From: Escherichia coli
GTDB lineage: Bacteria; Pseudomonadota; Gammaproteobacteria; Enterobacterales; Enterobacteriaceae
Reading direction: 5' to 3' (one strand)
NCBI RefSeq assembly: GCF_017348835.2
Contig: NZ_CP071375.1
DNA: 64,000 bases
This document shows positions 1-49,850 of the stretch, in pieces. Position numbers and translations under genes: made by a program. The notes beneath the pieces are model-generated. The model saw only the letters and a program-made list of their open reading frames with translations, did not search any database and was not told where the DNA came from. Positions within the stretch are counted from its first letter, which is position 1; every line of letters starts with the position of its first letter.

Positions 1-527
1 GTCTGATGCAAATGGCTGAACGCTTTAAGATGCCAATCATCACCTTTATCGACACCCCGGGGGCTTATCCGGGCGTGGGCGCAGAAGAACGCGGTCAGTC
101 TGAAGCTATTGCACGCAACCTGCGTGAAATGTCTCGCCTCGGTGTACCGGTAGTTTGTACGGTTATCGGTGAAGGTGGTTCTGGCGGCGCGCTGGCGATT
201 GGCGTGGGCGATAAAGTGAATATGCTGCAATACAGCACCTATTCCGTTATCTCGCCGGAAGGTTGTGCGTCCATTCTGTGGAAGAGCGCCGACAAAGCAC
301 CGCTGGCAGCTGAAGCGATGGGTATCATCGCTCCGCGTCTGAAAGAACTAAAACTGATCGACTCCATCATCCCGGAACCGCTGGGTGGTGCTCACCGTAA
401 CCCGGAAGCGATGGCGGCATCGTTGAAAGCGCAACTGCTGGCGGATCTGGCCGATCTCGACGTGTTAAGCACTGAAGATTTAAAAAATCGTCGTTATCAG
501 CGCCTGATGAGCTACGGTTACGCGTAA
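1..527 (+). CDS. accA: Acetyl-CoA carboxylase carboxyltransferase alpha subunit, C-terminal part (gene starts upstream of window)
   Basis: ORF 6..527 translation matches AccA C-terminus as recalled; frame is open to the window edge. Confidence 0.9.
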
Positions 528-544
528 TTCGCAAAAGTTCTGAA

Positions 545-572
545 AAAGGGTCACTTCGGTGGCCCTTTTTTA
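545..572 (+). terminator. Rho-independent terminator after accA
   Basis: GC stem aaagggtcac...gtggccc followed by a T-run. Confidence 0.5.
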
Positions 573-625
573 TCGCCACGGTTTGAGCAGGCTATGATTA
601 AGGAAGGATTTTCCAGGAGGAACAC

Positions 626-2767: not shown

Positions 2768-2823
2768 CTTGCCAGAGCGGCTTCCGGGCGAGTAACGTGC
2801 TGTTAACAAATAAAGGAGACGTT

Positions 2824-3213
2824 ATGCTGGGTTTAAAACAGGTTCACCATATTGCGATTATTGCGACGGATTATGCGGTGAGCAAAGCTTTCTACTGCGA
2901 TATTCTTGGTTTCACGCTGCAAAGCGAAGTCTATCGCGAAGCGCGCGACTCGTGGAAAGGGGATTTGGCGCTTAATGGGCAATATGTGATTGAGCTTTTC
3001 TCATTTCCGTTCCCGCCGGAGCGCCCCAGCCGACCGGAAGCTTGCGGCCTGCGTCATCTGGCTTTTAGCGTTGATGATATCGATGCGGCAGTGGCGCACC
3101 TTGAAAGCCATAACGTGAAGTGTGAAGCCATCCGTGTCGATCCATACACGCAAAAACGCTTCACGTTCTTTAACGATCCGGACGGGCTGCCGTTGGAACT
3201 GTATGAGCAGTAA
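2824..3213 (+). CDS. yaeR: VOC / glyoxalase-family protein YaeR
   Basis: ORF 2797..3213; likely start at internal Met 2824 (MLGLKQVHH); conserved synteny. Confidence 0.75.
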   Translation: MLGLKQVHHIAIIATDYAVSKAFYCDILGFTLQSEVYREARDSWKGDLALNGQYVIELFSFPFPPERPSRPEACGLRHLAFSVDDIDAAVAHLESHNVKCEAIRVDPYTQKRFTFFNDPDGLPLELYEQ

Positions 3214-3277
3214 GGCTTGTCATCGCCGCATTTGCCCGGTAACGTGCCGGGCATTGCTACTGTAAAATCGCACCATC

Positions 3278-4573
3278 ATGACACTCACGCTCAATAGACA
3301 ACTTCTCACCTCACGCCAGATTCTGGTGGCCTTTAGCGGCGGGCTTGACTCCACCGTTCTGCTGCATCAGTTGGTGCAGTGGCGGGCGGAAAATCCGGGC
3401 GTCACTCTGCGCGCTATTCATGTGCATCACGGTTTAAGTGCCAATGCCGATGCCTGGGTTAGGCATTGCGAGAACATCTGCCAACAGTGGCAGGTGCCGC
3501 TGGTGGTCGAGCGCGTGCAACTTGCGCAAGAAGGACTGGGCATTGAGGCCCAGGCGCGGCAGGCGCGTTATCAGGCATTTGCCCGCACCTTGTTGCCCGG
3601 TGAAGTGCTGGTCACCGCGCAACATCTCGACGATCAATGTGAAACTTTTCTGCTGGCGCTAAAACGCGGTAGCGGCCCTGCCGGGCTTTCGGCTATGGCG
3701 GAAGTTTCGGAGTTTGCCGGAACACGGCTTATCCGCCCGTTGCTTGCCCGCACGCGGGGGGAACTGGCGCAGTGGGCATTGGCGCATGGTTTACGCTGGA
3801 TTGAAGACGAAAGTAATCAGGACGACTCATACGATCGTAACTTTCTGCGCCTGCGCGTAGTGCCGTTATTGCAGCAGCGTTGGCCGCATTTTGCCGAAGC
3901 AACAGCCCGCAGCGCCGCACTTTGCGCTGAACAAGAGAGCCTGTTGGATGAACTGCTGGCGGATGATTTAGCACACTGTCAATCGCCGCAGAGGACGCTG
4001 CAGATTGCGCCAATGCTGGCGATGAGTGATGCCCGCCGCGCGGCGATTATCCGCCGCTGGCTTGCAGGGCAGAATGCACCGATGCCTTCCCGCGACGCGT
4101 TGGGGCGGATCTGGCAGGAAGTGGCGCTGGCGCGGGAAGATGCCTCCCCCTGTTTACGTTTGGGCGCGTTTGAAATCCGACGCTATCAGTCGCAACTGTG
4201 GTGGATTAAATCCGTCACCGGGCAAAGCGAAAACATTGTGCCGTGGCAGACGTGGCTTCAACCGCTGGAATTACCGGCGGGGCTGGGAAGTGTACAGCTT
4301 AATGCGGGAGGCGATATTCGCCCTCCGCGTGCAGACGAAGCGGTCAGCGTGCGTTTCAAAGCGCCAGGATTGCTGCATATTGTCGGGCGTAACGGCGGAC
4401 GTAAGCTAAAGAAAATCTGGCAAGAGCTGGGCGTGCCGCCGTGGCTACGTGACACCACGCCACTGCTGTTTTATGGCGAAACGCTGATTGCGGCGGCAGG
4501 GGTATTTGTGACGCAAGAAGGTGTGGCTGAAGGTGAGAATGGCATAAGTTTTGTCTGGCAGCGAAACGCTTAG
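3278..4573 (+). CDS. tilS: tRNA(Ile)-lysidine synthetase
   Basis: 431 aa ORF; PP-loop motif SGGLDS near the N-terminus. Confidence 0.9.
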
Positions 4574-9677: not shown

Positions 9678-9787
9678 GTTGTTACGGTTCCAGTTGGAAG
9701 GTAGAACAGGCTCAAGGCGAGCCTGGGACAAAAAAAGTGATTTAGTTTACCAGTGCAAAAGAAATGTCAAAAGAGAAGGGCGTGAAT

Positions 9788-10495
9788 TTAACGCGGTTCC
9801 AGCGCAAAGACTTCAAAACCTGCGTCGGTGACGCGCCAGCGAACGTTAAAATCATGTAGCCAGACGGCATAGGTTTTACCCGTTTCCTCACCTTTACGAT
9901 AGGCCGGGCGTGGGTCTTGCGCCAGTACTTCGCGGATAAACAGGGTTAACTGCGGATAACGCTTCTCCAGCGTCAAAAGCTGCTTTTCGACCTCTGCGGT
10001 AAAACTCACCGTCATCTCTGCCGCTGGCGCACTTTGCGCATAGCTGGCACAGGCATCGGGAAGCGATTCAGCAAAGGGGAGATACGGTTTGATATCCACT
10101 ACCGGCGTACCATCGACCAGATCCATACTGCCGAGCTTCAGAATCACGCTGTCTTTATGGCAAACAACCTCTTTCAGCTCTACCAACGACATACCAATTG
10201 GGTTAGGGCGAAAAGTGGAACGCGTAGCGAAAACACCCATTCTGGCATTACCGCCAAGACGAGGCGGACGCACAGTCGGACGCCAGCCGCCTTCCATCGT
10301 TTGATGAAAGACGAAAAGGATCCATAAATGGCTGAATGCTTCCAGGCCGCGAACGGCGTCGGCCTGGTTGTAGGGAGCAATGAGATGCAGTTCGCCGTTG
10401 GCGCTTTTTACCAGACCAGGCTGGCGCGGAACGGCGAATTTTTCTTTATAGGGCGAGCGAATAACGCCTATTTGCTCGAACTGGAAACTGCTCAT
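9788..10495 (-). CDS. tsaA: tRNA N6-threonylcarbamoyladenosine methyltransferase TsaA (YaeB)
   Basis: 235 aa ORF; synteny between proS and rcsF. Confidence 0.8.
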   Translation of the reverse strand: MSSFQFEQIGVIRSPYKEKFAVPRQPGLVKSANGELHLIAPYNQADAVRGLEAFSHLWILFVFHQTMEGGWRPTVRPPRLGGNARMGVFATRSTFRPNPIGMSLVELKEVVCHKDSVILKLGSMDLVDGTPVVDIKPYLPFAESLPDACASYAQSAPAAEMTVSFTAEVEKQLLTLEKRYPQLTLFIREVLAQDPRPAYRKGEETGKTYAVWLHDFNVRWRVTDAGFEVFALEPR

Positions 10496-10896: not shown

Positions 10897-11013
10897 AGTA
10901 TTTCCTCAATGTATGATCAAAACGTCAATATTGAATCAGGAGCTTGTAAAAATGACAAGACGGGCAAGCGCCCGTCCTGAATGATATTACAAATTGTGGA
11001 AACAGCCTAAAAA

Positions 11014-11829
11014 TTACCAGCCTTTAACAGCGCCGCCGTTAAACACTTTGTTTGCTGCTTCGTAAACTTCGTCAGACTGATAAGCCTGGACGAATTTCTT
11101 CACGTTCTCGGCGTCTTTGTTATCTTCACGCGTCACGATCAGGTTTACGTACGGGGAGTCTTTATCTTCGACAAAGATACCGTCTTTCGCTGGAGTCAGG
11201 CCAATCTGGCTGGCATAGGTGGTATTGATAACTGCCAGAGCGATTTGCGCGTCGTCCAGAGAGCGAGGCAGCTGCGGTGCTTCCAGCTCAACAATTTTCA
11301 GATTTTTTGGGTTCTCAACAACATCAAGTACGGTCGGCAGCAGGCCAACGCCATCTTTCAGTTTGATCAAGCCCACTTTTTGCAGCAGCAGCAGTGAACG
11401 ACCAAGGTTAGTTGGGTCGTTTGGCACGGCAACCTGCGAACCATCCTGCAGTTCATCCAGTGATTTGATTTTCTTGGAGTAACCAGCAATCGGATAAACA
11501 AAAGTGTTGCCTACTGCGACCAGTTTGTAGCCACGATCTTTCAGTTGCTGATCAAGGTACGGTTTATGCTGGAAGGCGTTGGCGTCGATATCGCCTTTGC
11601 TCAATGCTTCGTTTGGCAGAACATAGTCGTTGAAGGTTACCAGCTCAACGTCCAGGCCATATTTGTCTTTCGCAACTTTCTGCGCGACTTCTGCAACCTG
11701 CTGTTCGGCACCAACAATCACGCCGACTTTAATGTGGTTTGGATCTTTTTCATCCTGACCGCAGCCTACCAGTGCCAGTGATCCGATCAGGGCTCCCACT
11801 GCCGCAAAGGTTTTGAATTTGAACGCCAT
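11014..11829 (-). CDS. metQ: D-methionine ABC transporter substrate-binding lipoprotein
   Basis: 271 aa ORF with lipobox LVGC. Confidence 0.9.
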   Translation of the reverse strand: MAFKFKTFAAVGALIGSLALVGCGQDEKDPNHIKVGVIVGAEQQVAEVAQKVAKDKYGLDVELVTFNDYVLPNEALSKGDIDANAFQHKPYLDQQLKDRGYKLVAVGNTFVYPIAGYSKKIKSLDELQDGSQVAVPNDPTNLGRSLLLLQKVGLIKLKDGVGLLPTVLDVVENPKNLKIVELEAPQLPRSLDDAQIALAVINTTYASQIGLTPAKDGIFVEDKDSPYVNLIVTREDNKDAENVKKFVQAYQSDEVYEAANKVFNGGAVKGW

Positions 11830-32425: not shown

Positions 32426-34591
32426 ATGGCAGAACAGGCAGCGGCGGACCTGTTTGGTGCGTTGCCGGAACCGTCAGGTCTGGTTAAAGCCGCAGTAGCT
32501 GCTGCGCAGGCTGCCGCTGCAGCAGCAGGGATCCCGGATATGGCTGGTGCAGTTCAGGATGCGGCGGCGTCGATTGCTGCCGGTGGACCGGGGGCGCATA
32601 ACGTCACAGTAAGTGGTAGTGCGGTGCCGCCGCAGCTGCTTTTGTTTGCAGGCATGAATGGTTCGGAAGGGCTTGGAAACCTGTTTTCCTACACAGTACA
32701 GCTTAAAACCCCGGATACCCTGAACCTCGGATATGTCTCCCCCGCAGCCAACCTGCCGCTCAAGCCGATGGTGGGCAAAGACCTGTGCGTCAGTATCGAA
32801 CTGGACGGCGGCGGCAAACGGCATATCAGCGGGCTGGTGACAGCGGCGCGGGTGGTGGGCTATGAGGGCCGCTCGGTAACGTATGAATTACGCCTTGAGC
32901 CGTGGCTGAAACTGCTGACCCATACCAGCGACTACAAAGCGTTCCAGAATAAAACCGTGGTGGATATTCTCGATGAAGTACTGGATGAATATTCCTTTCC
33001 GGTGGAAAAGCGGCTGGTGGAAAATTATCCACCCCGCGCCTGGCAGGTGCAGTATGGTGAAACCGACTTCGATTTCATCCAGCGCCTGATGCAGGAATGG
33101 GGGATTTACTGGTGGTTTGAGCACAGCGAGAACAGCCACACGCTGGTGCTGGCGGATGCCATCAATGGTCATAAAGCGTGCCCTGACTCGCCGCTGGTGG
33201 AGTGGCACCAGGAAGGGCTGAAACTGGACAAGGAATTTATCCACACCATTACGGCCAGTGAGAGGCTGCGTACTGGAAAGTGGGTGATGGACGATTTTGA
33301 TTTTATGAAGCCTCGTTCGCTGCTTAAAAGTACCGTGGCTAGTCCGCGTGATACCGGTCATGCTGAATACGAGCATTATGAATGGCCTGGTGATTACTTC
33401 ACTACGGGCGAAGGCGAGATGCTGACGCGCATTCGTATGGAAGCGCAGCGCAGCCCCGGCAGCCGGGCACATGGGGCAGGTCATATCCGCACCCTCATGA
33501 CGGGTTACACCTTTACGCTGATGAATCATCCAACGGCAGAGGTCAACCAGGAATACCTACTGGTACAGACCACGCTGTTTTTACGGGATAATGCGCAGCA
33601 CAGCGGTCAGGAGCAGCATTTTACCTATGTCACCACGTTTGAACTGCACCCCACCAGCGAAGTTTACCGCCCACAGCGAACCCTAAGCAAACCCCACACC
33701 AAAGGCCCGCAGAGCGCCATCGTCACCGGCCCGGCAGGGCAGGAAATCTGGACGGATAAATATGGCCGGGTGAAGGTGCAGTTTGGCTGGGACCGTTACC
33801 TGTACGATGCGGAACAGCCGTACACGCCGGTGGCCGCCATCACGGGGCGCGGAGAGAGCCGGAAAATCTGGTATTACCACACGGACCTGACGGGCACGGT
33901 ACAGGAGGTGACCGCGCCGGACGGGACGCTGGTGTGGGCGGGCTATCAGGCGGGATTTGGTGAAAACCGGGGCGACATCAGCAACAGCGGGGCGTACTTT
34001 GAGCAGCCGCTGCGGCTGCCGGGGCAGTATTATGATGAAGAGACGGGGCTGCACTATAATCTGTTCAGATATTATGCGCCGGAGTGCGGGAGGTTTATCA
34101 GTCAGGATCCGATTTCGATCCGTGGGGGGCTGAATCTTTACCGGTATGCGCCTAATCCGCTGAGATGGATTGATCCGCTTGGATTAGACTGGAATTATCA
34201 TTTAACAGATAGTGATGGTAAGGTTTATTATCATGGACGTGCAAGTGATAATGCGTCAATGGAAGATGTTGCCCGTCGTCACAGCAATACAACAGGAGCT
34301 GATAAGGCAAGATTTGGAGAAACAGATACCATGACACGAATAACTGAGCCGGGTACGCCAAAATTAACAGCACAAGGTGTGGAAGGTATTGCCATAGGTG
34401 ATAATACTATCGGGCGAAGAGCTGATAACGGTAATAGGGGTCGGGGTAATAATATTCGGGGTGTTAATCCCAATGCAACCAATGCTACTGAAAAACTAAA
34501 TGCGGGTAAAGAATTTTTAAATGGACGAATACCAAGTGAAATGACTGGTGAAACATTGACAGGTAAGGAGTATTTTGAATCAAAATGTTAA
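32426..34591 (+). CDS. Chimeric protein: VgrG N-terminal (gp27-like) region fused in frame to an Rhs C-terminal core segment and a C-terminal toxin domain
   Basis: VgrG-like up to KVQFGWDR, then [21 protein letters not shown]...[27 protein letters not shown], which is nearly identical to 38200-38586 in the downstream Rhs; then an AT-rich unique tail. Confidence 0.7.
33795..34185 (+). repeat. Rhs 3' core segment, copy inside the VgrG chimera
   Basis: Near-identical nucleotide sequence to the Rhs core 3' ends at 38200-38586, 40930-41319 and 43520-43907. Confidence 0.8.
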
Positions 34592-35463
34592 AATTAACCG
34601 ATGTAAATAAAAATGCATTAAGAATACTTAAAAAATATAACGTGCTGGCAGAAGGTGACATAATAAGAGGTCATCCATTAAGTGAGCGGGATTTGAAATA
34701 TGTTGAGGCGCATTGTATTACAACTGAAGAACGAGCCTTTTTAAATGAAAAAGGTTTGGGGTTCGGATTTATTTCTGTGACTCATGATGAAGCATTAAGA
34801 GATTCGTTTACATATTTTAAATCTTCTAATAAAAATGATGTGACAGCTTCTTTTCTGGTGAGCCTGAGTAGTGCCAGATTAGACTACAGAAGTGGATTGT
34901 CTGCATTTGCAATTATGCAAACAATGCCGATGCATGGCTTTGAACCAAATCAGGCTTCTTTTTGTAAAGTATGTTCCGCAGAAAAATATAAAAAGCATTT
35001 TGATCTAACCAGCTTAAATCAGACTCGTTTCTTTAGTGGTTCTCTAGCAGTCTTTAAAACTCCTTATGAAATTTCTTTTTTTCTGGAGCAACAATCAAAA
35101 TTGGAAGTCGTTCAGCCAACCGAAAAAGATTTCTCTATCTTTAATGCGATTTTGAAAATAATTGTTGACGCAGAATCTGGCGAAAAACTGACATCAATAA
35201 TTAAAAAAATTAGAGCGATTGATGGCTTCAGGATAACTACAGATCAGTGTCGATGTCTTCTGGAAACGCTGGGATTTTGTGGGATTCTGGAAACGAAGGA
35301 ACACAAAGGGTATCTGACTTACTTTACTAATCCTGGACTGGCTCCGAGTAAATCTCATAGTTCTAACTGGGCCTATCCGGTTGATTTCTGGACCGGAGGG
35401 GATGGAATAAATCGCGAAGCGTTAAAATTCTGGTTTGGTGAATATAAAGAAATTGTTATCTGA
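34585..35463 (+). CDS. Putative immunity protein for the chimera's C-terminal toxin
   Basis: 292 aa AT-rich ORF; start overlaps the toxin stop (ATGTTAA), which suggests translational coupling. Confidence 0.45.
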
Positions 35464-35557: not shown

Positions 35558-35887
35558 TTACGGTTGAATAAGATCGTCAATAAACACCGCACCGTCAACG
35601 GTACGCAACCAGCGTGGCGCTTTCAGTTTTGCCGCAAAGAACCAGACCAGTTCACAAAGCAGCCCCGTCAGGGGTTGTTCCATTTTAGATCCCTGCGCCT
35701 GTTCCGTCAGGAGCTGGAGTAATACCTCGCAATATTCACACAATTGCTCAGGATCCAGGTCAAAGTGCGGAAATGAGGCAGGCAGGTCGTCGAGTGTCAG
35801 GCTGTCTACCAGATGGGGTGGAATAGGATCGTTCAGCGTGGGAGACAGAATGGCGATACAGGCGCGAAGTCGTCCGAACAACGCCAT
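35558..35887 (-). CDS. Hypothetical protein, possibly the distal part of a frameshifted gene that starts near 36021
   Basis: 109 aa ORF; upstream on the same strand a 36-codon ORF with RBS ggaggt ends in a stop just before it. Confidence 0.2.
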   Translation of the reverse strand: MALFGRLRACIAILSPTLNDPIPPHLVDSLTLDDLPASFPHFDLDPEQLCEYCEVLLQLLTEQAQGSKMEQPLTGLLCELVWFFAAKLKAPRWLRTVDGAVFIDDLIQP

Positions 35888-36097
35888 TTTCAGCGCCGGA
35901 TCGTGACACTCTATAAGGGTTCAGCGAAGCGATCGCAGTGATCGGCCAGGTCTGTGAAATCGGTGGCAGAACTGAAAGGAATGGACAATAAATCATAATC
36001 AGGGGTGAGGACTGTAGCCATAAGGCAACCTCCGATAAGTAGGCGTTAAAACCACCACCGAAGAGACCAATCTTACGGGTGGTGGAACCGGGCGGAG

Positions 36098-38932
36098 TTG
36101 GTCTTACCGGCCTTATCGGATACCGGCGCATCTTTCGATGCCACCGCCCGGCCCACCATTGAGGTACAGCCGTGCGTGCAACACAAAAAAGACGCTGGCG
36201 CGTCATGTGTCGCCGATAAGACTTATTCAGGAGACCAATCCCGACGCCTGATTTTGCAGACGCGGCATAACGATACAACGATCGCGAAATGGCGACAAAC
36301 CCCTTTCCCGGAAGGCGGCTCGCAAAATCAGAAATATCACAGGGAAAGACAGAGCGCCGCAACGCGGCGGGATGTACCGCTTCACGTACAACGAAAACCA
36401 TTTTCCGGTAGCGGTGGAACTCCCCGGCGAACGCAGGTAACGCTGGAATACGACACCCTGAGCCGGGTGGTGAAAGAGACGGACCCGGCAGGCCGGGTGA
36501 CACAGACGCAGTGGAACGGCAGTTTTGCTGAAATCACGCGCCGGGCACTGGATGACGACCACGTATGGAAGGCGGATTACAACGAACACGGCCAGGTGAT
36601 ACGGGAGACGGACCCGGAAGGGCGCGTCACGCGCTACGGGTATGATGAACAGGGGCTGGCGGTCAGCCGCACGGATGCGCGGGGCGGCGAGGCTGCGCTG
36701 GCGCATGATGCGCGCGGCCAGCTGAGGCGTTACACCGACTGTTCAGGGCGTGCCACGGGTTATGAATACGATGAAGACGGCAACCTGACGGTGGTGACGG
36801 ACGCGGAGGGGAAAACGGTACGTATCCGCTATAACCGTCTGGGACTGCCGGAGACGGTAAATCATCCCGGTAAACAGCAGGACCGTTACACGTGGAACGC
36901 GCTGGGGTTACTGAGCAGCCACCGTCGCATCACAGGCAGTGTGCAGTCCTGGCAGTATACGCCGCGCGGTCTGCTGGCGCTCCACGTAGATGAAGAGAAA
37001 CGGGAGACGCGCTGGCATTATACCGCGGAGGGATGGATTGCCAGTCTGAGCAACGGCAACGGAGCGCTTTACCGGTTCAGTCACGATGCGGACGGACGGC
37101 TGACGGGAGAACAGCGCCCGGACGGTCTGATACGGATGTTTGTGCTGAATGCGGGCGGGTATCCGGTCATCATCCAGACGCAGGGTACAGAAGGCGGGGG
37201 GCGCAATGAACAGCAGGAGCGTGACGCGCTGGGCCGCCTGCTGCGCAGTGACACGCAGCACAGTACACGGACCTTCAGCTACAACCGTCTTGACCAGATA
37301 ACGGAAGTGACGCTCACCCCGACGAAAGAAGGGGAACGGCTGCACCACATGCAGGCGGACACGGTGCGCTTTGCGTATGACCGCAGCGGCTGGCTGACGG
37401 CAGAGCACAGCGTGCACGGCAGCATAAAATATCAGCGTGACGCGCTGGGCAATCCCACCGATATCACGTTGCCGGACGGGCAGCATCTCAGTCATCTTTA
37501 CTACGGCAGCGGACATCTGCTCCAGACGGCACTGGACGGTATCACGGTCAGCGAATATGAGCGTGACAGTCTGCACCGTCAGGTGATGCGCACGCAGGGG
37601 AAACTGGCGACGTTCAGCGGCTACAACGCCGACAACCGGTTAAGCTGGCAGCGCAGTCTGCCAGGTGGCAGCCAGAATCCACAGCAGACCGGTAACCCCC
37701 CGGCGCAGAACGACAGCGTGACGGCGCGGGACTATATCTGGAATGCGGACGGTGAGGTCGGCGGCATCAATGACAAACTGCGCGGTTGCCTGGTGTTCAG
37801 CTATGACCGCAGCGGCTGGCTGACCAGTCGCACGGGTCAGATGTACGACCATGACCATTATTATTACGACAAAGCGGGCAACCTGCTGACGGACGAGTAT
37901 CAGAGCGCGGTGATGGATAACCGCCTGCCGGGCTACGGGCGTGACCGTTACCGCTATAACGAATGGGGCGAACTGACAGAGCGCAGGGACCAGCAACTGG
38001 AGTGGAATGCGCAGGGCCAGTTAACGCGGGTCATCAGCAGCAACAGCGAGACGCGGTATCAGTATGATGCGCTGGGCAGGCGTATCAGCAAGGCGACCAG
38101 CAATCTCCATACCGACCGGGGAGAACGAAGCCGGACAACGTTTGTGTGGGAAGGGGTCCGGCTGTTGCAGGAGACAACGTGGCAGGGAAAGCGGACGTAC
38201 CTGTACGACGCGGAACAGCCGTACACGCCGGTGGCCGCCATCACCGGGCGCGGAGAGAGCCGGAAAATCTGGTATTACCACACGGACCTGACGGGCACGG
38301 TACAGGAGGTGACCGCGGCGGACGGGACGCTGGTGTGGGCGGGCTATCAGGCGGGGTTCGGAGAAAACCGGGGCGACATCAGCAACAGCGGGGCGTATTT
38401 TGAACAGCCGCTGCGGCTGCCGGGGCAGTATTATGATGAAGAGACGGGGCTGCACTATAATCTGTTCAGATATTATGCGCCGGAGTGCGGGAGGTTCGTA
38501 AGCCAGGATCCGATTTCGATCCGGGGTGGTCTGAATCTTTACCGGTATGCGCCGAATCCGATTACTTGGATCGATCCGTGGGGATTGGCAAAGGGGGATT
38601 ATGGTAAAATGCCTACGTTCCCTGGTTGGCAGAAACATCATAATATTCCACAAAATATGGCTACTCATTCGGCAATTGTTGACTCTGGATTTGATATACA
38701 TAATAGTCGTAACATTACAACCTTGCCAAAAACTGGAAGTATAGATACTGCCAGAACAGTGCACAGTGGAATGCACACAGGAGATTATGACAGGATGGTA
38801 AAAAATGCTTTAGATCAAATTGACTCGTTGAATGCTTCCCCTGAGATCAAAAAAATGCATATAGAAGCCTTATCTGATGATATTGGCAATAAATTGAGAA
38901 CAAAACAAATTACGTTAAATGCTGCATGTTGA
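36098..38932 (+). CDS. Rhs / YD-repeat protein, 5'-truncated and frameshifted near 36425, with a C-terminal toxin domain after DPWGL
   Basis: YD repeats (RYxYD, YxYDxxG); frame switch at gaacgcaggtaacgctg; core ends ...NPITWIDPWGL, followed by an AT-rich tip. Confidence 0.7.
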   Translation: MVLPALSDTGASFDATARPTIEVQPCVQHKKDAGASCVADKTYSGDQSRRLILQTRHNDTTIAKWRQTPFPEGGSQNQKYHRERQSAATRRDVPLHVQRKPFSGSGGTPRRTQVTLEYDTLSRVVKETDPAGRVTQTQWNGSFAEITRRALDDDHVWKADYNEHGQVIRETDPEGRVTRYGYDEQGLAVSRTDARGGEAALAHDARGQLRRYTDCSGRATGYEYDEDGNLTVVTDAEGKTVRIRYNRLGLPETVNHPGKQQDRYTWNALGLLSSHRRITGSVQSWQYTPRGLLALHVDEEKRETRWHYTAEGWIASLSNGNGALYRFSHDADGRLTGEQRPDGLIRMFVLNAGGYPVIIQTQGTEGGGRNEQQERDALGRLLRSDTQHSTRTFSYNRLDQITEVTLTPTKEGERLHHMQADTVRFAYDRSGWLTAEHSVHGSIKYQRDALGNPTDITLPDGQHLSHLYYGSGHLLQTALDGITVSEYERDSLHRQVMRTQGKLATFSGYNADNRLSWQRSLPGGSQNPQQTGNPPAQNDSVTARDYIWNADGEVGGINDKLRGCLVFSYDRSGWLTSRTGQMYDHDHYYYDKAGNLLTDEYQSAVMDNRLPGYGRDRYRYNEWGELTERRDQQLEWNAQGQLTRVISSNSETRYQYDALGRRISKATSNLHTDRGERSRTTFVWEGVRLLQETTWQGKRTYLYDAEQPYTPVAAITGRGESRKIWYYHTDLTGTVQEVTAADGTLVWAGYQAGFGENRGDISNSGAYFEQPLRLPGQYYDEETGLHYNLFRYYAPECGRFVSQDPISIRGGLNLYRYAPNPITWIDPWGLAKGDYGKMPTFPGWQKHHNIPQNMATHSAIVDSGFDIHNSRNITTLPKTGSIDTARTVHSGMHTGDYDRMVKNALDQIDSLNASPEIKKMHIEALSDDIGNKLRTKQITLNAAC
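36848..38586 (+). repeat. Rhs conserved core repeat, copy 1
   Basis: About 1.7 kb, near-identical to 39583-41319; 3' part near-identical to 42465-43907. Confidence 0.85.
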
Positions 38933-39547: not shown

Positions 39548-41656
39548 ATCACGCGGTGCGGGTATGACGAACAGTTCCTGCCGGAGACGGTCAGCCACCC
39601 CGGTAAACAGCAGGACCGTTACACCTGGAACGCACTGGGGTTACTGAGCAGCCATCGTCGCATCACGGGCAGTGTGCAGTCCTGGCAGTATACGCCGCGC
39701 GGGATGCTGGCGCGCCATACGGATGAAGAGAAACGGGAGACGCGCTGGCAGTACACCCCGGAAGGGCTGGTTGCCAGTCTGAGCAACGGCAACGGAGCGC
39801 TTTACCGGTTCAGTCACGATGCGGACGGACGGCTGACGGGAGAACAGCGCCCGGACGGTCTGATACGGATGTTTGTGCTGAATGCGGGCGGGTATCCGGT
39901 CATCATCCAGACGCAGGGTACAGAAGGCGGGGGGCGCAATGAACAGCAGGAGCGTGACGCGCTGGGCCGCCTGCTGCGCAGTGACACGCAGCACAGTACA
40001 CGGACCTTCAGCTACAACCGTCTTGACCAGATAACGGAAGTGACGCTCACCCCCACGGAAGAAGGGGAACGGCTGCACCACATGCAGGCGGACACGGTGC
40101 GCTTTGCGTATGACCGCAGCGGCTGGCTGACGGCAGAGCACAGCGTGCACGGCAGCATAAAATATCAGCGTGACGCGCTGGGCAATCCCACCGACATCAC
40201 GTTACCGAACGGGCAGCACCTCAGCCATCTTTACTACGGCAGCGGGCATCTGCTCCAGACGGCACTGGACGGTATCACGGTCAGTGAATATGAGCGTGAC
40301 AGTCTGCACCGTCAGGTGATGCGCACGCAGGGGAAACTGGCGACGTTCAGCGGCTACAACGCCGACAACCGGTTAAGCTGGCAGCGCAGCCTGCCAGGTG
40401 GCAGCCAGAACCCACAGCAGGCCGGTAACCCCCCGGCGCAGAAAGACAGCGTGACAGCGCGGGATTATATCTGGAACGCAGACGGTGAAGTCGGCGGCAT
40501 CAATGACAAACTGCGCGGTTGCCTGGTGTTCAGCTATGACCGCAGCGGCTGGCTGACCAGTCGCACGGGTCAGATGTACGACCATGACCATTATTATTAC
40601 GACAAAGCGGGCAATCTGCAGACGGATGAGCATCAGGGAGCGGTGCCGGATAACCGCCTGCCGGGCTACGGGCGTGACCGCTACCGCTATAACGAATGGG
40701 GCGAACTGACAGAGCGCAGGGACCAGCAACTGGAGTGGAATACGCAGGGCCAGTTAACGCGGGTCATCAGCAGCAACAGCGAGACGCGGTATCAGTATGA
40801 TGCGCTGGGCAGGCGTATCAGCAAGGCGACCAGCAATCTCCATACCGACCGGGGAGAACGAAGCCGGACAACGTTTGTGTGGGAAGGGTTCCGGCTGTTG
40901 CAGGAGACAACGTGGCAGGGAAAGCGGACATACCTGTACGACGCGGAACAGCCGTACACGCCGGTGGCGGCCATCACGGGGCGCGGAGAGAGCCAGAAAA
41001 TCTGGTATTACCACACGGACCTGACGGGCACGGTACACGAGGTAACCGCGCCGGACGGGACGCTGGTGTGGGCGGGCTACCAGGCGGGATTTGGCGAAAA
41101 CCGGGGCGACATCAGCAACAGCGGGGCGTACTTTGAGCAGCCGCTGCGACTGCCGGGGCAGTACTTTGACGAAGAAACAGGGCTGCATTACAATCTGTTC
41201 AGGTATTATGCGCCGGAGTGCGGGAGGTTCGTAAGCCAGGATCCGATAGGGTTGCTTGGTGGGCTGAACTTATATGCTTATGCGCCTAATCCGCTGTCAT
41301 GGATCGATCCGTTAGGTTTGACTCCATGTGCAAATGGGGGGAATGCTAAAAAACATGGTGGCACAGGACATAATAATTTTATTGATAATCTTATTGCGGA
41401 TGCTCGCAGTCAGGGTGCTACAAATATCAGGAAAAACCAATGGCAGGTAGATGTTAATGGAAATGTTGTTGGTAAAAATAGACCGGATGTTCAATTTGAT
41501 TTAAATGGTAAACATTATAATATTGAGGTTGATACAACAATAAAAGGCAGCGTTGGTCACCAAAATACTATACCTACACTTGATCCCAACTCAAGAAATA
41601 CATTTTGGCTAATTGATGACTTAGGGAATATTTTAAATGGCCACTCAACCATCTGA
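39548..41656 (+). pseudogene. Orphan 5'-truncated Rhs fragment with a distinct C-terminal toxin domain
   Basis: Rhs homology starts abruptly right after the upstream immunity gene; ORF track gives 39674..41656; core ends DPLGL, then a unique tip. Confidence 0.65.
39583..41319 (+). repeat. Rhs conserved core repeat, copy 2
   Basis: Near-identical to 36848-38586. Confidence 0.85.
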
Positions 41657-42221
41657 TAATAAAAAATTAGTGTTTGCTGTAGTGAACAGTGATTTTAATG
41701 ATATAGAAAGAACTATCCATAATGGATTGAACTGGCCGAGTGAACCAATAAGTAGTCGAAAACTTATTGAGGAAATACACTTGACTATTCAACGTGGTGG
41801 GGTCTTGCCGTCCGAGGGGGTTTTCTATTATCCGTGTATAAATGACAGCAAATTAATTTTTCTGTCTAATTTATCTGATGGATGGGACTCTTTACTTTAT
41901 TGCCTGTCAAAACAGAATAAATCTAGCTATCTACTGTTTAGGTTATTGATGGGGGAATACCCTCTGATGGAAATGAGTTTTATAGAGTCAGGGAAAACAA
42001 TACGTTTAATTAGAGTGATAAAAGAAAATAAATGGATTTTTTATGAGGTCGGGGAACCGTTATGGTTTGAAGAAAAGGAAAACTATTCAAAAAGAAGAAT
42101 CGCAGATAGAATTACTTATGATCTCTTACTCTCCTATTCACGGAAAAATGGCATTGACTTTGATTCCCCCGCATTTTTTAAAACGGAAAAAGAATCACTA
42201 TGGTTGAATGAAATACGATAG
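41637..42221 (+). CDS. Putative immunity protein for the second orphan toxin
   Basis: 194 aa AT-rich ORF overlapping the toxin 3' end. Confidence 0.4.
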   Translation: MATQPSDNKKLVFAVVNSDFNDIERTIHNGLNWPSEPISSRKLIEEIHLTIQRGGVLPSEGVFYYPCINDSKLIFLSNLSDGWDSLLYCLSKQNKSSYLLFRLLMGEYPLMEMSFIESGKTIRLIRVIKENKWIFYEVGEPLWFEEKENYSKRRIADRITYDLLLSYSRKNGIDFDSPAFFKTEKESLWLNEIR

Positions 42222-42232
42222 TTTATTTAAAT

Positions 42233-42271
42233 AAAAAGCCGGAAAAGAAATTAAACTTTCCCGGCTTTTTT
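42233..42271. terminator. Bidirectional hairpin terminator
   Basis: aaaaagccggaaaag...ctttcccggctttttt; homologous to the hairpin at 44613-44650. Confidence 0.5.
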
Positions 42272-42276
42272 ATTAT

Positions 42277-42465
42277 TTAACTCTCGTTCAGCACACTAAA
42301 CATCCCGTCCCGCATCCCCTTAACTGCCTGTTTAACCTGATAAAGCTCCCTGCGCAGTTCCTGTACTTCGTTGTTATCCGCAAGCAGGATCAGACATCCC
42401 TCCGAGATCTTCACGGTAACGCCCGTGCCGATCTCAAATCCCGCTTCTCTCAGCCATTTGGCGCT
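42277..42465 (-). pseudogene. SymE-like toxin gene, 5'-truncated by the adjoining Rhs fragment
   Basis: C-terminal 60 aa AKWLREAGFEIGTGVTVKISEGCLILLADNN... resemble SymE; the upstream part of the ORF is antisense Rhs sequence. Confidence 0.5.
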
Positions 42466-43907
42466 GAATGCGGGCGGGTTTCCGGTCATCATCCAGACGC
42501 AGGGCACAGAGGGCGGGGTGCGTAATGAGCGGCAGGAGCGTGATGCGCTGGGCCGCCTGCTGCGCAGTGACACGCAGCACAGTACACGGACCTTCAGCTA
42601 CAACCGTCTTGACCAGATAACGGAAGTGACGCTCACCCCCACGGAAGAAGGGGAACGGCTGCACCACATGCAGGCGGACACGGTGCGCTTTGCGTATGAC
42701 CGCAGCGGCTGGCTGACGGCAGAGCACAGCGTGCACGGCAGCATAAAATATCAGCGTGACGCGCTGGGCAATCCCACCGACATCACGTTACCGAACGGGC
42801 AGCACCTCAGCCATCTTTACTACGGCAGCGGGCATCTGCTCCAGACGGCACTGGACGGTATCACGGTCAGTGAATATGAGCGTGACAGTCTGCACCGTCA
42901 GGTGATGCGCACGCAGGGGAAACTGGCGACGTTCAGCGGCTACAACGCCGACAACCGGTTAAGCTGGCAGCGCAGCCTGCCAGGTGGCAGCCAGAACCCA
43001 CAGCAGGCCGGTAACCCCCCGGCGCAGAAAGACAGCGTGACAGCGCGGGATTATATCTGGAACGCAGACGGTGAAGTCGGCGGCATCAATGACAAACTGC
43101 GCGGTTGCCTGGTGTTCAGCTATGACCGCAGCGGCTGGCTGACCAGTCGCACGGGTCAGATGTACGACCATGACCATTATTATTACGACAAAGCGGGCAA
43201 TCTGCAGACGGATGAGCATCAGGGAGCGGTGCCGGATAACCGCCTGCCGGGCTACGGGCGTGACCGCTACCGCTATAACGAATGGGGCGAACTGACAGAG
43301 CGCAGGGACCAGCAACTGGAGTGGAATACGCAGGGCCAGTTAACGCGGGTCATCAGCAGCAACAGCGAGACGCGGTATCAGTATGATGCGCTGGGCAGGC
43401 GTATCAGCAAGGCGACCAGCAATCTCCATACCGACCGGGGAGAACGAAGCCGGACAACGTTTGTGTGGGAAGGGTTCCGGCTGTTGCAGGAGACAACGTG
43501 GCAGGGAAAGCGGACATACCTGTACGACGCGGAACAGCCGTACACGCCGGTGGCGGCCATCACGGGGCGCGGAGAGAGCCAGAAAATCTGGTATTACCAC
43601 ACGGACCTGACGGGCACGGTACACGAGGTAACCGCGCCGGACGGGACGCTGGTGTGGGCGGGCTACCAGGCGGGATTTGGTGAAAACCGGGGCGACATCA
43701 GCAACAGCGGGGCGTACTTTGAGCAGCCGCTGCGGCTGCCGGGGCAGTATTATGATGAAGATACGGGGCTGCACTATAATCTGTTCAGATATTATGCGCC
43801 GGAGTGCGGGCGGTTTATCAGTCAGGACCCGATAGGGCTGGCGGGAGGAATAAACCTATATGCTTATGCGCCTAATCCGCTAAGTTATATTGATCCTCTT
43901 GGGCTTT
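42465..43907 (+). repeat. Rhs conserved core repeat, copy 3
   Basis: Near-identical to 37146-38586 and 39880-41319. Confidence 0.85.
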
Positions 43908-44335
43908 GTAAATTAAGGGGAAGCGATGGGCGCTACAGAAGTGCACAGAATATTCAGGAAGAAATAGGCGGCCTACCCAATTTTGCAGGAAAAACTCCAG
44001 GAGAAATACGACAAACTTTGCGTAATCGAGGTTATTCGTCGGTACAAGCGTATAGTGGAGGAGAGGTCTGGACAAAAGCATTACCTGACGGAAATACTGT
44101 TGCAGTGAGGCTTGATCCGGCAAATCCTCGCTCACCTTCACATTATGCTGATGCTGTACCTCATGCTCATATTGAAACAGTTCCAACATCCAGTGTTTCT
44201 AATGGGAATTATCGCCCGCGAGACGTGACTGGCAGGCATACTGCCACTGGTGGGGTTTCTGATCGAGGAACAAATCCGAATCATAACGCTGATGTTTACA
44301 TTCCAATGTCTCCGGGACGATTCCCATATGATTAA
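42465..44335 (+). pseudogene. Orphan 5'-truncated Rhs fragment with a third distinct C-terminal toxin domain
   Basis: Rhs homology starts at gctgaatgcgggcggg (matches 37139 in copy 1); core ends DPLGL at 43907, followed by a unique tip. Confidence 0.65.
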
Positions 44336-44346
44336 TGTGAGGTTTT

Positions 44347-44610
44347 ATGAATATCCGAAATCAATATAATGAAGCCTTAAATAAATTAGAAGTTGATGTT
44401 AATGATGGTTTGAGAGATTTAATAAACATATATTGTGTGGCTATTGATTCTTTTGAAAATGATATCGTTGACTCGATTGCTTTATACGTGATTGATATGG
44501 GAAATAAAGATACTTGTCGATATCTACAAGAAGTCTTATCAGAGAATGAAGATCCTTATTTAGTAAAAGAATTTAATGCATGGATAAAAGAAATTAAGAA
44601 AAAATATTAA
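44347..44610 (+). CDS. Putative immunity protein for the third orphan toxin
   Basis: 87 aa AT-rich acidic ORF immediately after the toxin. Confidence 0.4.
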   Translation: MNIRNQYNEALNKLEVDVNDGLRDLINIYCVAIDSFENDIVDSIALYVIDMGNKDTCRYLQEVLSENEDPYLVKEFNAWIKEIKKKY

Positions 44611-44612
44611 AA

Positions 44613-44650
44613 TAAAAGCCGGGAAGGTTATAAAATCTTCCCGGCTTTTT
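44613..44650. terminator. Bidirectional hairpin terminator
   Basis: aaaagccgggaagg...cttcccggcttttt. Confidence 0.5.
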
Positions 44651-44654
44651 ATTT

Positions 44655-44939
44655 TTAATTCTCGTTCAGTACACTAAACATCCCGTCCCGCATCCCCTTA
44701 ACCGCCTGTTTAACCTGATAAAGTTCCCTGCGCAGTTCCTGTACTTCGTTGTTATCGGCAAGCAGGATCAGGCAGCCTTCCGAGATCTTCACAGTAACGC
44801 CCGTGCCGATCGAAAATTCCGCTTCTCTCAGCCATTTGGCGCTGATTTTGATCACCGGCGTGTCGCTGCTGTTGGGCAGATATCCTACGGTACAACGGCG
44901 TTGTGTTTTGGAAATGGTGACTTCTGGCGTAATATCATG
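44655..44939 (-). CDS. SymE-like toxin homolog; no canonical ATG at the 5' end of the open frame
   Basis: The open frame reads ...RRCTVGYLPNSSDTPVIKISAKWLREAEFSIGTGVTVKISEGCLILLA..., resembling K-12 SymE (LTVSY...ITLKGQWLEAAGF...GTAVDVKVMEGCIVLTA) as recalled; ORF track starts at 44855. Confidence 0.5.
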   Translation of the reverse strand, partial: HDITPEVTISKTQRRCTVGYLPNSSDTPVIKISAKWLREAEFSIGTGVTVKISEGCLILLADNNEVQELRRELYQVKQAVKGMRDGMFSVLNEN

Positions 44940-45001
44940 TTTAAGTTAGGGGCTTTCGTAGTCATACCCCGACTCTCCCCGGCCCTAAACACAACCCCCA
45001 C

Positions 45002-45781
45002 TCACCACAACCTAAACTCATCCGCATCCTGCCATGCCGGAAACTTTTCTCTATATTCCCGCAATGCCATCATCGACAGCTCCGCATCAATGCGCGTTGC
45101 CTGATGCGCGTCGGCAGTAGCGATAATCTCGCCTTGTGGATTAATCACCCGGCTGTCACCGCGATAATGGCAGCCGTTGCCATCGCTGCCGACGCGATTG
45201 CATCCCGCCACATACGCCTGATTCTCAATCGCGCGGGCCGTCAGCAATGCCTGCCAGTGCAGAGAGCGCGGAGCAGGCCAGTTGGCGACGTACAGGGCGA
45301 GGTCATAATCGTTGAGATTGCGCGACCACACAGGAAAACGTAAGTCGTAGCACACCAGCGGCAAAATACGCCAGCCGCGCCATTCCACAATCACTCGCGC
45401 ATTGCCCGCTTTATAATGCAGATGCTCATCAGCCATTCGGAACAGATGACGCTTATCATAAAAATGTACCGTGCCGCCCGGCTCAACCAGCAAAAAGCGG
45501 TTAACTGAACCAGACTCCGTTTGTAATGCAACACTGCCTGCAATCAGCGCATTGCACTGCTGCGCTTTAGCTGTCATCCAGTTCACTACGTCATCTTGCG
45601 CTAGCGACGAAGCTGCCGCTTCCATGGCAAAGCCGCTGGTAAACATCTCCGGTAGAACGATCACATCGCGCCCGGTAATACCTTCCAGTTGACGATCAAA
45701 ATGACGCAGGTTGGCAGGACCATCCATCCACACCAGTGGTTGCTGCAAAAGCGTAATCTTCAAACCAGGCACGGTGTACAA
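45002..45781 (-). CDS. yafV: Omega-amidase YafV (nitrilase superfamily)
   Basis: 259 aa C-N hydrolase family ORF; synteny with ivy. Confidence 0.8.
   Translation of the reverse strand: MYTVPGLKITLLQQPLVWMDGPANLRHFDRQLEGITGRDVIVLPEMFTSGFAMEAAASSLAQDDVVNWMTAKAQQCNALIAGSVALQTESGSVNRFLLVEPGGTVHFYDKRHLFRMADEHLHYKAGNARVIVEWRGWRILPLVCYDLRFPVWSRNLNDYDLALYVANWPAPRSLHWQALLTARAIENQAYVAGCNRVGSDGNGCHYRGDSRVINPQGEIIATADAHQATRIDAELSMMALREYREKFPAWQDADEFRLW

Positions 45782-49708: not shown

Positions 49709-49850
<142 letters not shown>

What the first reader, a model, noticed from the sequence alone, without database searches (positions are those of the whole stretch)
42233..44939. SymE-like toxin genes convergent with the immunity genes behind conserved hairpins; one copy truncated at a microhomology junction
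Two minus-strand segments (42277-42465 and 44655-44939) encode peptides resembling the type I toxin SymE. Each is separated from the upstream immunity gene by a homologous hairpin (42233-42271 and 44613-44650). The first copy is cut off where the third Rhs fragment begins; the breakpoint shares GCTGA between the symE-like sequence and the Rhs core (compare 42451-42470 with 44831-44850 and 37139-37160). This suggests a repeating unit of Rhs tip, immunity gene, hairpin and symE-like gene, with a new cassette inserted into an older unit. The complete copy has no ATG at the start of its open frame. In K-12, symE is SOS-regulated and repressed by an antisense RNA; whether anything similar applies here is unknown.
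Basis: partly seen in the sequence, partly recalled or inferred. Interest (0 to 1): 0.7.

Follow-up and report, generated by a model that had tools for sequence, protein, structure and literature searches.

The report
Truncated SymE gene relics behind Rhs cassettes
Two leftover pieces of a SymE-family toxin gene sit tail-to-tail behind two Rhs toxin/immunity cassettes in an E. coli type VI secretion island; neither looks like a working gene, but such leftovers may be scars of a small mobile element that swaps Rhs toxin tips.

Summary
On the minus strand, 42277-42467 and 44655-44941 are 93% identical. Both belong to the SymE family (Pfam PF08845, E=3e-11). Each follows an unrelated immunity gene behind a homologous two-way terminator hairpin. 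Copy 1 is joined to an Rhs core fragment at a shared GCTGA.

The interpretation needs correction. Neither copy is complete. Copy 1 keeps codons 35-97. Copy 2 lacks the first two codons, ribosome-binding site, promoter and partner gene, because it is cut where the island meets the yafV backbone. All full-length relatives start MAEHDITPEV.

These are not symE/symR-type loci. No SymR match and no LexA box were found, and the score falls below NCBI's SymE cutoff. Intact close relatives follow an Xre-type HTH gene.

The unit "Rhs tip, immunity gene, hairpin, symE" is general. In 43 loci from Enterobacterales species genomes, 42 of 59 symE 3' ends face an Rhs core end within 3 kb, and only 3 of those 42 are intact.

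In E. coli EC554, D6 and LI60C3, intact HTH-symE lies in a 6.6-kb element with a XerC recombinase and a primase. This element sits in the Rhs core end and carries a new tip and immunity gene. No element backbone is in this window.

RefSeq already annotates such copies, and Kawano 2007 showed SymE beside RHS genes. Interest is moderate.

The parts
39578..41656 (+). Rhs orphan fragment 1: core fragment plus tip B
   Evidence: Repeat families D2-D4 against the main core. Rhs_assc_core TIGR03696, E=7e-16, at the core end. PGAP marks it as a partial RHS CDS in the identical strain PE164.
41637..42221 (+). Candidate immunity gene B (194 aa)
   Evidence: ORF. Annotated as a hypothetical protein in PE164. 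No NCBIfam hit. The immunity role is inferred from its position after the tip.
42233..42271 (.). Two-way terminator hairpin 1
   Evidence: Folds at -17 kcal/mol on the + strand and -22 on the - strand, z = -5 and -6.4, flanked by A and T runs. Homologous to hairpin 2.
42277..42467 (-). symE relic 1: codons 35-97 plus the stop, with the 5' end replaced by antisense Rhs core
   Evidence: tblastn matches residues 35-97 at 98% to the intact D6 protein. PGAP calls a 71-aa 'SymE family' CDS that starts at an ATG supplied by antisense Rhs sequence.
42463..42467 (.). GCTGA microhomology at the symE::Rhs-core junction
   Evidence: Three-way alignment and repeat coordinates. The same junction occurs in 3 of 5426 E. 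coli genomes and in Escherichia sp. E1V33.
42463..44335 (+). Rhs orphan fragment 2: the last ~460 codons of the core plus tip C
44347..44610 (+). Candidate immunity gene C (87 aa)
   Evidence: ORF. Annotated as hypothetical protein WP_032280303.1. No family hit.
44613..44650 (.). Two-way terminator hairpin 2
   Evidence: Folds at -26.9 kcal/mol on the + strand and -23.7 on the - strand, z = -7.0 and -6.4. Also found by the terminator scan.
44655..44941 (-). symE relic 2: codons 3-97 plus the stop, with no start codon, RBS, promoter or HTH partner
   Evidence: SymE homology ends at 44941.
44942..45001 (.). Island/backbone junction and the 3' flank of yafV. Backbone homology starts at about 44950.
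   Evidence: alignment with K-12. The yafV CDS is at 45002-45772 on the minus strand.

Best explanation
Both segments are inactive leftovers of a SymE-family gene. SymE is an AbrB-fold, DNA-binding toxin-like protein. In Enterobacterales this gene forms the conserved far flank of Rhs tip/immunity cassettes.

Shown:
- The unit is 'Rhs core end, variable tip, variable immunity gene, two-way terminator, convergent symE'.
- Copy 1 lost codons 1-34 at an illegitimate join (GCTGA microhomology) to an Rhs core fragment.
- Copy 2 lost its start codon and everything upstream, at the point where the T6SS/Rhs island meets the yafV backbone.

Inferred:
- Neither copy makes a SymE protein.
- The hairpins simply end the convergent transcripts.
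- The block 'hairpin, symE relic, Rhs core' is kept with different cassettes either side of it in related strains. It therefore marks, and probably serves as, a homology arm for cassette turnover, that is, Rhs C-terminal displacement.
- The relics most likely descend from a 6.6-kb XerC/primase/HTH/SymE element. In other E. coli strains that element lies inside the Rhs core end and brings a new tip and immunity gene. The backbone would have been deleted here.
For: Truncation:
- All 16 full-length relatives start MAEHDITPEV, while copy 2 starts at ..KHDITPEV just after a stop.
- The alignment with strain D6 shows homology only from codon 3.
- The K-12 yafV flank begins at about 44950.
- Copy 1 covers residues 35-97 only.

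No regulatory apparatus:
- No symR match.
- No LexA box near the copies.
- No HTH, primase or xerC anywhere in the window.

The unit is general:
- Of 59 symE 3' ends in 43 loci from species-representative genomes, 42 face a convergent Rhs core-end motif within 3 kb, at a median of 0.9 kb. The motif occurs 50 times on the convergent strand and once on the same strand.
- 58 of the 59 are followed by a stable hairpin.
- Only 3 of the 42 Rhs-linked copies are intact. The rest are 5'-truncated, frameshifted or carry stops.

Conserved block between variable cassettes: window 42234-43833 matches PapRG-06-5 at 95.4%, starting exactly at the hairpin, while the tips and immunity genes on both sides differ.

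The element:
- Strain 05-3629 has Rhs(tipA)-immA-symE-ybgA. EC554 has Rhs(tipC)-immC-symE-HTH-primase-xerC-hyp-coreEnd-tipA-immA-symE-ybgA. That is a 6595-bp insertion flanked by an imperfect repeat in the DPIGL-coding core end.
- D6 has two such units in tandem.
- LI60C3 has the same element type at another Rhs locus, with a distal symE'::Rhs junction.
- The backbone occurs in 54-66 of 5426 E. coli genomes.
- Copy 2 is 95% identical in protein to the element-borne SymE of D6.
Against: - There are no expression data, so silence of the two copies is inferred from missing signals only.
- PGAP annotates an 86-aa CDS with an ATT start in a 99.8% identical strain. Copy 2 also lies 62 nt downstream of yafV on the same strand with no predicted terminator between them, so read-through transcription is possible.
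- Both frames are still open.
- No element backbone or element-end signature is in the window.
- Orphan 2 keeps about 460 core codons, whereas the element carries only about 27. The link between these particular relics and the element is therefore indirect.
- Site-specific integration versus RecA recombination on the 30-70 nt repeat was not resolved.
Confidence: 0.72

Rival explanations
1. Copy 2 is a working SymE-family toxin gene. It would be transcribed by read-through from yafV and translated from a non-AUG start (ATT at 44915 or GTG at 44855).
For: - The frame is open for 95 codons.
- It is on the same strand as yafV, 62 nt downstream, with no predicted terminator between them.
- PGAP calls an 86-aa SymE-family CDS in strain 14EC033.
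- The Pfam domain is complete in the frame.
Against: - There is no Shine-Dalgarno sequence before either candidate start.
- In the 100% identical PE164 record, the same pipeline calls only a 66-aa hypothetical protein.
- All intact relatives use ATG with a GAGG ribosome-binding site.
- 39 of the 42 Rhs-linked copies elsewhere are visibly decayed.
- An unregulated toxin without its HTH partner would be selected against.
Confidence: 0.08
2. The relics are kept because their antisense (+) strand carries a promoter or leader, like IsrA of Salmonella or Ssr1 of Shigella. That transcript would read into the next orphan Rhs fragment and immunity gene, or would act as an sRNA.
For: - Rfam isrA passes its threshold antisense to the 109-aa symE relatives. 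It gives sub-threshold hits at 42407-42502 (36 bits) and 44785-44868 (28 bits); the gathering score is 51.
- IsrA is cis-antisense to STM0294.1n and is expressed inversely to it (PMC2330248).
- Ssr1 maps between an Rhs gene and SF0269 (PMC4782007). Its Rfam model aligns to the + strand here with E=1e-71, though far below its gathering score.
Against: - No convincing sigma-70 promoter lies upstream of the IsrA-like start on the + strand.
- The Rfam similarity is what protein-coding homology alone would give.
- Truncated copies keep the 3' part whatever the reason, so retention does not discriminate between the two readings.
Confidence: 0.12
3. The resemblance to SymE is chance, or the two copies are unrelated.
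For: None found.
Against: - Pfam E=3.4e-11.
- 269 homologues, nearly all named SymE family.
- 93% DNA identity between the two copies.
Confidence: 0.01

Closest known systems
E. coli K-12 symE/symR (Kawano, Aravind & Storz 2007, PMC1891008). SymE has since been reinterpreted as a nucleoid-condensing DNA-binding protein (Thompson et al. 2022, as summarised in PMC11894785).
   Same: Same Pfam family (PF08845). The AbrB-like core is conserved: W, L, A, F, G, T, V, V, K, E, G, C columns are invariant.
   Different: - 42.9 bits, well below the 132-bit equivalog cutoff.
- No SymR RNA and no LexA box.
- Different genomic setting: the end of an Rhs array rather than the hsd/mcr region.
- Both copies are truncated.
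The cHTH-SymE and cHTH-SymE-Prim-Hel neighbourhoods, and the 'RHS/haemagglutinin' neighbourhoods, in Fig. 7 of Kawano et al. 2007
   Same: Intact close relatives (97 aa, 95% identical to copy 2) lie downstream of an Xre-type HTH gene, next to a primase, and face an Rhs tip/immunity pair.
   Different: The window has no HTH gene and no primase. The paper did not link the element to the Rhs core end or to tip replacement.
Rhs C-terminal displacement and orphan arrays (Jackson et al. 2009, PMC2935791)
   Same: A main rhs gene is followed by core fragments with unrelated tips and immunity genes. The model uses a circular intermediate carrying 'core, tip and any intervening genes'.
   Different: [quoted passage not shown] Here symE relics punctuate the array, and related strains carry a XerC/primase element exactly at the displacement point.
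Salmonella IsrA/STM0294.1n (PMC2330248) and Shigella Ssr1 (PMC4782007)
   Same: These are homologous DNA at the end of an Rhs locus. The Rfam models align to the strand antisense to symE.
   Different: The window hits fall below both gathering scores. Neither paper recognised the overlapped gene as SymE-family; that link is my inference.
symE genes noted inside CDI/Rhs/T6SS clusters of Proteus, Dickeya, Erwinia and Pantoea (PMC11278526, PMC8386352, PMC7764402, PMC3942780)
   Same: symE lies convergent behind toxin/immunity cassettes, with a terminator between them.
   Different: Those are incidental remarks without an explanation. The copies described there are mostly treated as intact toxin genes.

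Membership tests
SymE family (Pfam PF08845, AbrB-like fold) | Significant match to the SymE_toxin profile | tested here: met
   Copy 2: E=3.4e-11, model positions 1-52 of 54. Copy 1 covers only the second half: NCBIfam E=1.1e-8, profile positions 44-88.
SymE family (Pfam PF08845, AbrB-like fold) | A complete gene with a start codon and ribosome-binding site | tested here: not met
   Copy 1 lacks codons 1-34. Copy 2 lacks codons 1-2 and everything upstream.
SymE family (Pfam PF08845, AbrB-like fold) | Toxicity or DNA binding of the product | not testable with these tools
   Needs an expression experiment.
symE/symR type I toxin-antitoxin (K-12 type) | A cis-antisense SymR RNA over the 5' end of symE | tested here: not met
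   Rfam symR RF01809 matches the K-12 control at 95 bits. It matches nothing in the window or in 9 loci with full-length or nearly full-length relatives. The 5' ends are also physically missing here.
symE/symR type I toxin-antitoxin (K-12 type) | A LexA-controlled (SOS) promoter | tested here: not met
   CTGT-N8-ACAG occurs once in the 64 kb, at 32681, which is chance level. The promoter regions are absent.
symE/symR type I toxin-antitoxin (K-12 type) | Score above the NCBIfam equivalog cutoff for SymE | tested here: not met
   42.9 and 34.9 bits against a cutoff of 132.
Rhs orphan array (C-terminal displacement) | Core fragments of one clade, each with a different tip and a small downstream ORF | tested here: met
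   Four core ends (33797, 38198, 40931, 43517) are 94-97% alike and are followed by unrelated tips and ORFs.
IsrA antisense RNA (Rfam RF01385) | Score at or above the gathering threshold of 51 bits | tested here: not met
   36.3 and 28.0 bits in the window, against 87-109 bits in the 109-aa relatives.
XerC/primase/HTH/SymE tip-carrying element (seen in E. coli D6, EC554, LI60C3) | Backbone genes (Xre HTH, primase, tyrosine recombinase) and the element end CCGGATCGTCCCGATGA next to a core end | tested here: not met
   tblastn found none of these genes in the window. The end signature is absent even with 3 mismatches. Only the symE part and the cassette layout are shared.

The most novel reading that the evidence does not exclude
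The symE relics behind Rhs cassettes, including the two in this window, are scars of a 6.6-kb element. The element carries a XerC-type recombinase, a primase, an Xre repressor, SymE and one 'core end, tip, immunity' cargo. It integrates into the DPIGL-coding end of an rhs gene. The resident Rhs protein thereby receives a new toxin tip and immunity gene, and the old tip is pushed downstream as an orphan. This would be the self-mobile 'circular intermediate' that the C-terminal displacement model has lacked since 2009. SymE/HTH would be the element's own addiction or regulatory module.
Probability: 0.4. Interest if true: 0.75.

Novelty: new member of a known kind. Interest (0 to 1): 0.45.

Why it matters
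For this window the result is mostly corrective. [quoted passage not shown]

More broadly, several papers have remarked on symE genes inside Rhs, CDI and T6SS clusters without explaining them. The comparison of empty, single-insertion and double-insertion loci offers a concrete explanation that can be tested. It also gives a candidate vehicle for how Rhs toxin tips are exchanged between strains, which bears on how bacterial competition weapons diversify.

Tried and rejected
- SymR-like antisense RNA: Rfam found only the K-12 control.
- LexA box: none near the copies.
- Antisense promoter for an IsrA-like RNA: I aligned nine copies and saw no convincing -35/-10 upstream of the model start. This stays unresolved rather than excluded.
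- Naming the tips and immunity genes: NCBIfam and Pfam recognised only the Rhs core end. Tip C, immunity B, immunity C and the D6 element cargoes had no family.
- Element backbone or element end in the window: absent.
- Literature on an Rhs-associated recombinase/primase element: nothing relevant in the held library. One search returned only unrelated papers.
- The 154-aa ORF behind the C4/isrK-like RNAs: no Pfam, PHROG or NCBIfam match.
- 'Ssr1' as a real sRNA here: the 654-nt Rfam model spans a coding 3' end, the terminator and the whole antisense of symE. The window scores 248 against a gathering score of 820, so I treat the hit as plain DNA homology.
Full report
WHAT THE WINDOW IS
The region is 100% identical to E. 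coli strain PE164. It lies at the distal end of a type VI secretion/Rhs island, and the backbone gene yafV follows directly. The K-12 map places yafV about 2.4 kb from the tRNA gene aspV, with no such island between them.

The Rhs part is heavily rearranged. It holds a vgrG fused to an Rhs core end, then four core ends (33797, 38198, 40931, 43517; 94-97% alike). Each core end is followed by an unrelated tip and a small ORF.

THE OBSERVATION
- On the minus strand, 44655-44942 reads *LKHDITPEVTISKTQRRCTVGYLPNSSDTPVIKISAKWLREAEFSIGTGVTVKISEGCLILLADNNEVQELRRELYQVKQAVKGMRDGMFSVLNEN*. The frame from 42277 reads ..FSAKWLREAGFEIG...SVLNES*.
- The two copies are 93% identical over 200 nt.
- The identity starts at the hairpins, while the immunity genes to the left are unrelated.
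- Copy 2 matches Pfam SymE_toxin at E=3.4e-11. Both copies match NCBI's SymE model. The intact relative is 44% identical to K-12 SymE over 68 residues.
- The hairpins fold strongly on both strands (-17 to -27 kcal/mol, no shuffle as good). They have A runs on one side and T runs on the other. I read them as two-way terminators between convergent genes.
- At the copy 1 junction, homology to copy 2 runs to 42467 and homology to the Rhs core (37144 onward) begins at 42463. GCTGA is common to both.

THE 'COMPLETE' COPY IS NOT COMPLETE
Sixteen full-length relatives all begin MAEHDITPEV. Against the intact gene of strain D6, copy 2 aligns only from codon 3. Upstream, D6 has a GAGG ribosome-binding site and an ATG, whereas the window has unrelated sequence.

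A search of 5426 complete E. coli genomes shows that symE homology stops at 44941. Homology to the ordinary yafV flank, as in K-12, starts at about 44950. Only 11 genomes share this junction.

Copy 2 was therefore cut at the island/backbone boundary. This explains the missing ATG.

PGAP handles the region inconsistently. It calls an 86-aa CDS with an ATT start in one near-identical strain, and a 66-aa hypothetical protein in the identical strain.

NOT A symE/symR-TYPE LOCUS
- Rfam's SymR model finds the K-12 control but nothing in the window or in relatives.
- No LexA box lies nearby.
- The bit score is a third of the equivalog cutoff.
- In strain D6 the intact 97-aa gene lies 74 nt downstream of an Xre-type HTH gene (Pfam HTH_3, E=7e-12; RstR-like). 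That gene is preceded by a near-consensus promoter inside an inverted repeat. This is the 'cHTH-SymE' arrangement that Kawano et al. 2007 listed (PMC1891008, section 13).
- K-12 SymE itself is now regarded as a DNA-binding, nucleoid-condensing protein rather than an RNase (PMC11894785, summarising Thompson et al. 2022; RefSeq name).

ANTISENSE RNA
Rfam gives sub-threshold hits on the + strand for Salmonella IsrA and Shigella Ssr1.

IsrA passes its threshold antisense to the 109-aa symE variants of five other species. It was shown experimentally to be antisense to STM0294.1n, with inverse expression (PMC2330248). Ssr1 maps between an Rhs gene and SF0269 (PMC4782007). Antisense transcription of Rhs-linked symE genes therefore has precedent.

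In the window I found no convincing promoter, and the similarity is what coding homology alone would give.

THE REPEATING UNIT IS GENERAL
A scan of one genome per species returned 43 loci from Enterobacterales species genomes.
- Of 59 symE segments that keep the 3' end, 42 face an Rhs core-end motif on the opposite strand within 3 kb (median 0.9 kb). Four more ran off the contig.
- The motif occurred 50 times on the convergent strand and once on the same strand.
- 58 of the 59 are followed by a stable hairpin. This is a crude -12 kcal/mol test.
- Several genomes have arrays that alternate Rhs tips with symE pieces; one has eight.
- Only 3 of the 42 Rhs-linked copies are intact. The others are 5'-truncated at various codons, frameshifted or carry stops.
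- Copies not next to Rhs have a different N-terminus (MATT..) and most of them look intact.

THE RELIC IS A CONSERVED BLOCK BETWEEN VARIABLE CASSETTES
The GCTGA junction is also present in E. coli GF4-3 and PapRG-06-5 and in Escherichia sp. E1V33. In the first two it lies at the same yafV locus, but with different tips and immunity genes on both sides.

Window 42234-43833 matches PapRG-06-5 at 95.4%. The match starts exactly at the hairpin and ends at the core end. Cassettes have therefore been exchanged while 'hairpin, symE relic, core' stayed in place.

WHERE INTACT COPIES LIVE
Three states of one locus (ybfA...ybgA) can be compared.
- Strain 05-3629 has Rhs(tip A)-immA-symE-ybgA.
- Strain EC554 has an intact Rhs with tip C. 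It is followed by immC, symE, HTH, a 910-aa primase, a XerC-type tyrosine recombinase and a GC-rich ORF. After these come a 27-codon core end with tip A, then immA, symE and ybgA.
- The difference between the two is a 6595-bp insertion. It is flanked by the imperfect repeat CCGATAGGGCT(R)AG(R)GGCGGGTTAAACTTATA, which encodes the DPIGL end of the Rhs core.
- Strain D6 has two such units in tandem, each with its own tip and immunity pair, plus a further displacement.
- Strain LI60C3 has an 88%-identical element, also in tandem, at a different Rhs locus. It ends in a truncated symE joined to an Rhs fragment, much as in the window.
- The backbone is in 54-66 of 5426 E. coli genomes, at a median of four places each, all chromosomal.
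- Remnants of the primase and recombinase lie next to symE in Citrobacter sedlakii; a primase fragment alone lies upstream of symE in an Erwinia MAG.

Jackson et al. 2009 proposed tip displacement by a circular intermediate and noted that no integrase was known to accompany Rhs (PMC2935791). I found no paper describing this element.

WHAT THIS MEANS FOR THE WINDOW
The window has no backbone gene and no element end. Copy 2 is 95% identical in protein to the element-borne SymE of D6, and the cassette layout is the same.

My best reading is that both copies are dead relics left after cassette turnover, probably after loss of an element backbone. The link to the element is an inference. Orphan 2 keeps about 460 core codons, more than the element carries, so at least one other recombination step is needed. 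I cannot tell from this genome whether the GCTGA join arose by insertion or by deletion.

VERDICT
- The feature is a known family in a setting that has been seen before, and RefSeq already names it.
- What goes beyond current description is that Rhs-linked symE copies are almost always relics, together with the candidate element that explains them.

Noticed in passing
L056 11100-17900 (E. coli EC554); L050 11700-24200 (D6); L057 8800-21900 (LI60C3); empty site at L053 (05-3629): A 6.6-kb unit lies inside the DPIGL-coding end of rhs genes. It comprises Xre HTH, SymE, a 910-aa primase, a XerC-type recombinase, a GC-rich ORF and one 'core end, tip, immunity' cargo. It gives the resident Rhs a new tip and leaves the old tip as an orphan. 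It is flanked by a 30-70 nt imperfect repeat.
   Followed up: partly
window 36075-36263 (minus strand) and 35558-36021 (minus strand): Rfam C4 antisense RNA (70.6 bits, threshold 45) and isrK (65.8 bits, threshold 50) lie just upstream of a frameshifted ORF. That ORF is convergent with the first cassette's candidate immunity gene (34585-35463). The ORF is intact (154 aa) in PapRG-06-5 (L054 4989-5453) and has no Pfam, PHROG or NCBIfam match. It occupies the same position relative to a cassette as symE does.
   Followed up: partly
window 32426-34591: A 721-aa ORF joins a VgrG N-terminal part to an Rhs core end and tip (repeat D1 at 33797-34096). PGAP marks the vgrG as partial in the identical strain. 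It looks like a deletion that fused vgrG to the end of an rhs gene.
   Followed up: no
L008 ~800-1050; L009 ~9750-10030 and ~11000-11280; L022, L040, L048 (alignment A6): In five species of four genera (Entomohabitans, Kosakonia, Citrobacter, Leclercia), symE is cut at about codon 11 and joined to the same conserved ~130-nt sequence. That sequence is the antisense of a degenerate Rhs core end. This is a second, older symE::Rhs junction type that has been propagated as a unit.
   Followed up: partly
window 44828-44845 and 42450-42467: The copy 1 breakpoint lies at the 3' arm of a small inverted repeat, TCAGC-N8-GCTGA, inside symE. The terminator scan flagged it in copy 2 and in D6. It may have favoured breakage or slippage there.
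   Followed up: no
L052 9165-10502 (E. coli Ec-U14-2); L054 12045-13181; rows H29-H51: ISAs1/ISEc1 copies sit at the ends of these Rhs/symE loci. In Ec-U14-2 one cuts symE and replaces the whole Rhs region. In many strains one abuts the yafV flank at the position where copy 2 ends in the window.
   Followed up: no
window 49715-49792: An Rfam naRNA4 (REP-derived nucleoid-associated RNA) match at 80 bits on the + strand. This is ordinary for E. coli intergenic REP elements.
   Followed up: no
Rfam families RF01385 (isrA) and RF02627 (Ssr1): Both published 'sRNAs' map to the strand opposite an Rhs-linked SymE-family gene. The original papers did not identify that gene as SymE-family. The Ssr1 model (654 nt) also spans a coding 3' end and a terminator.
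   Followed up: partly
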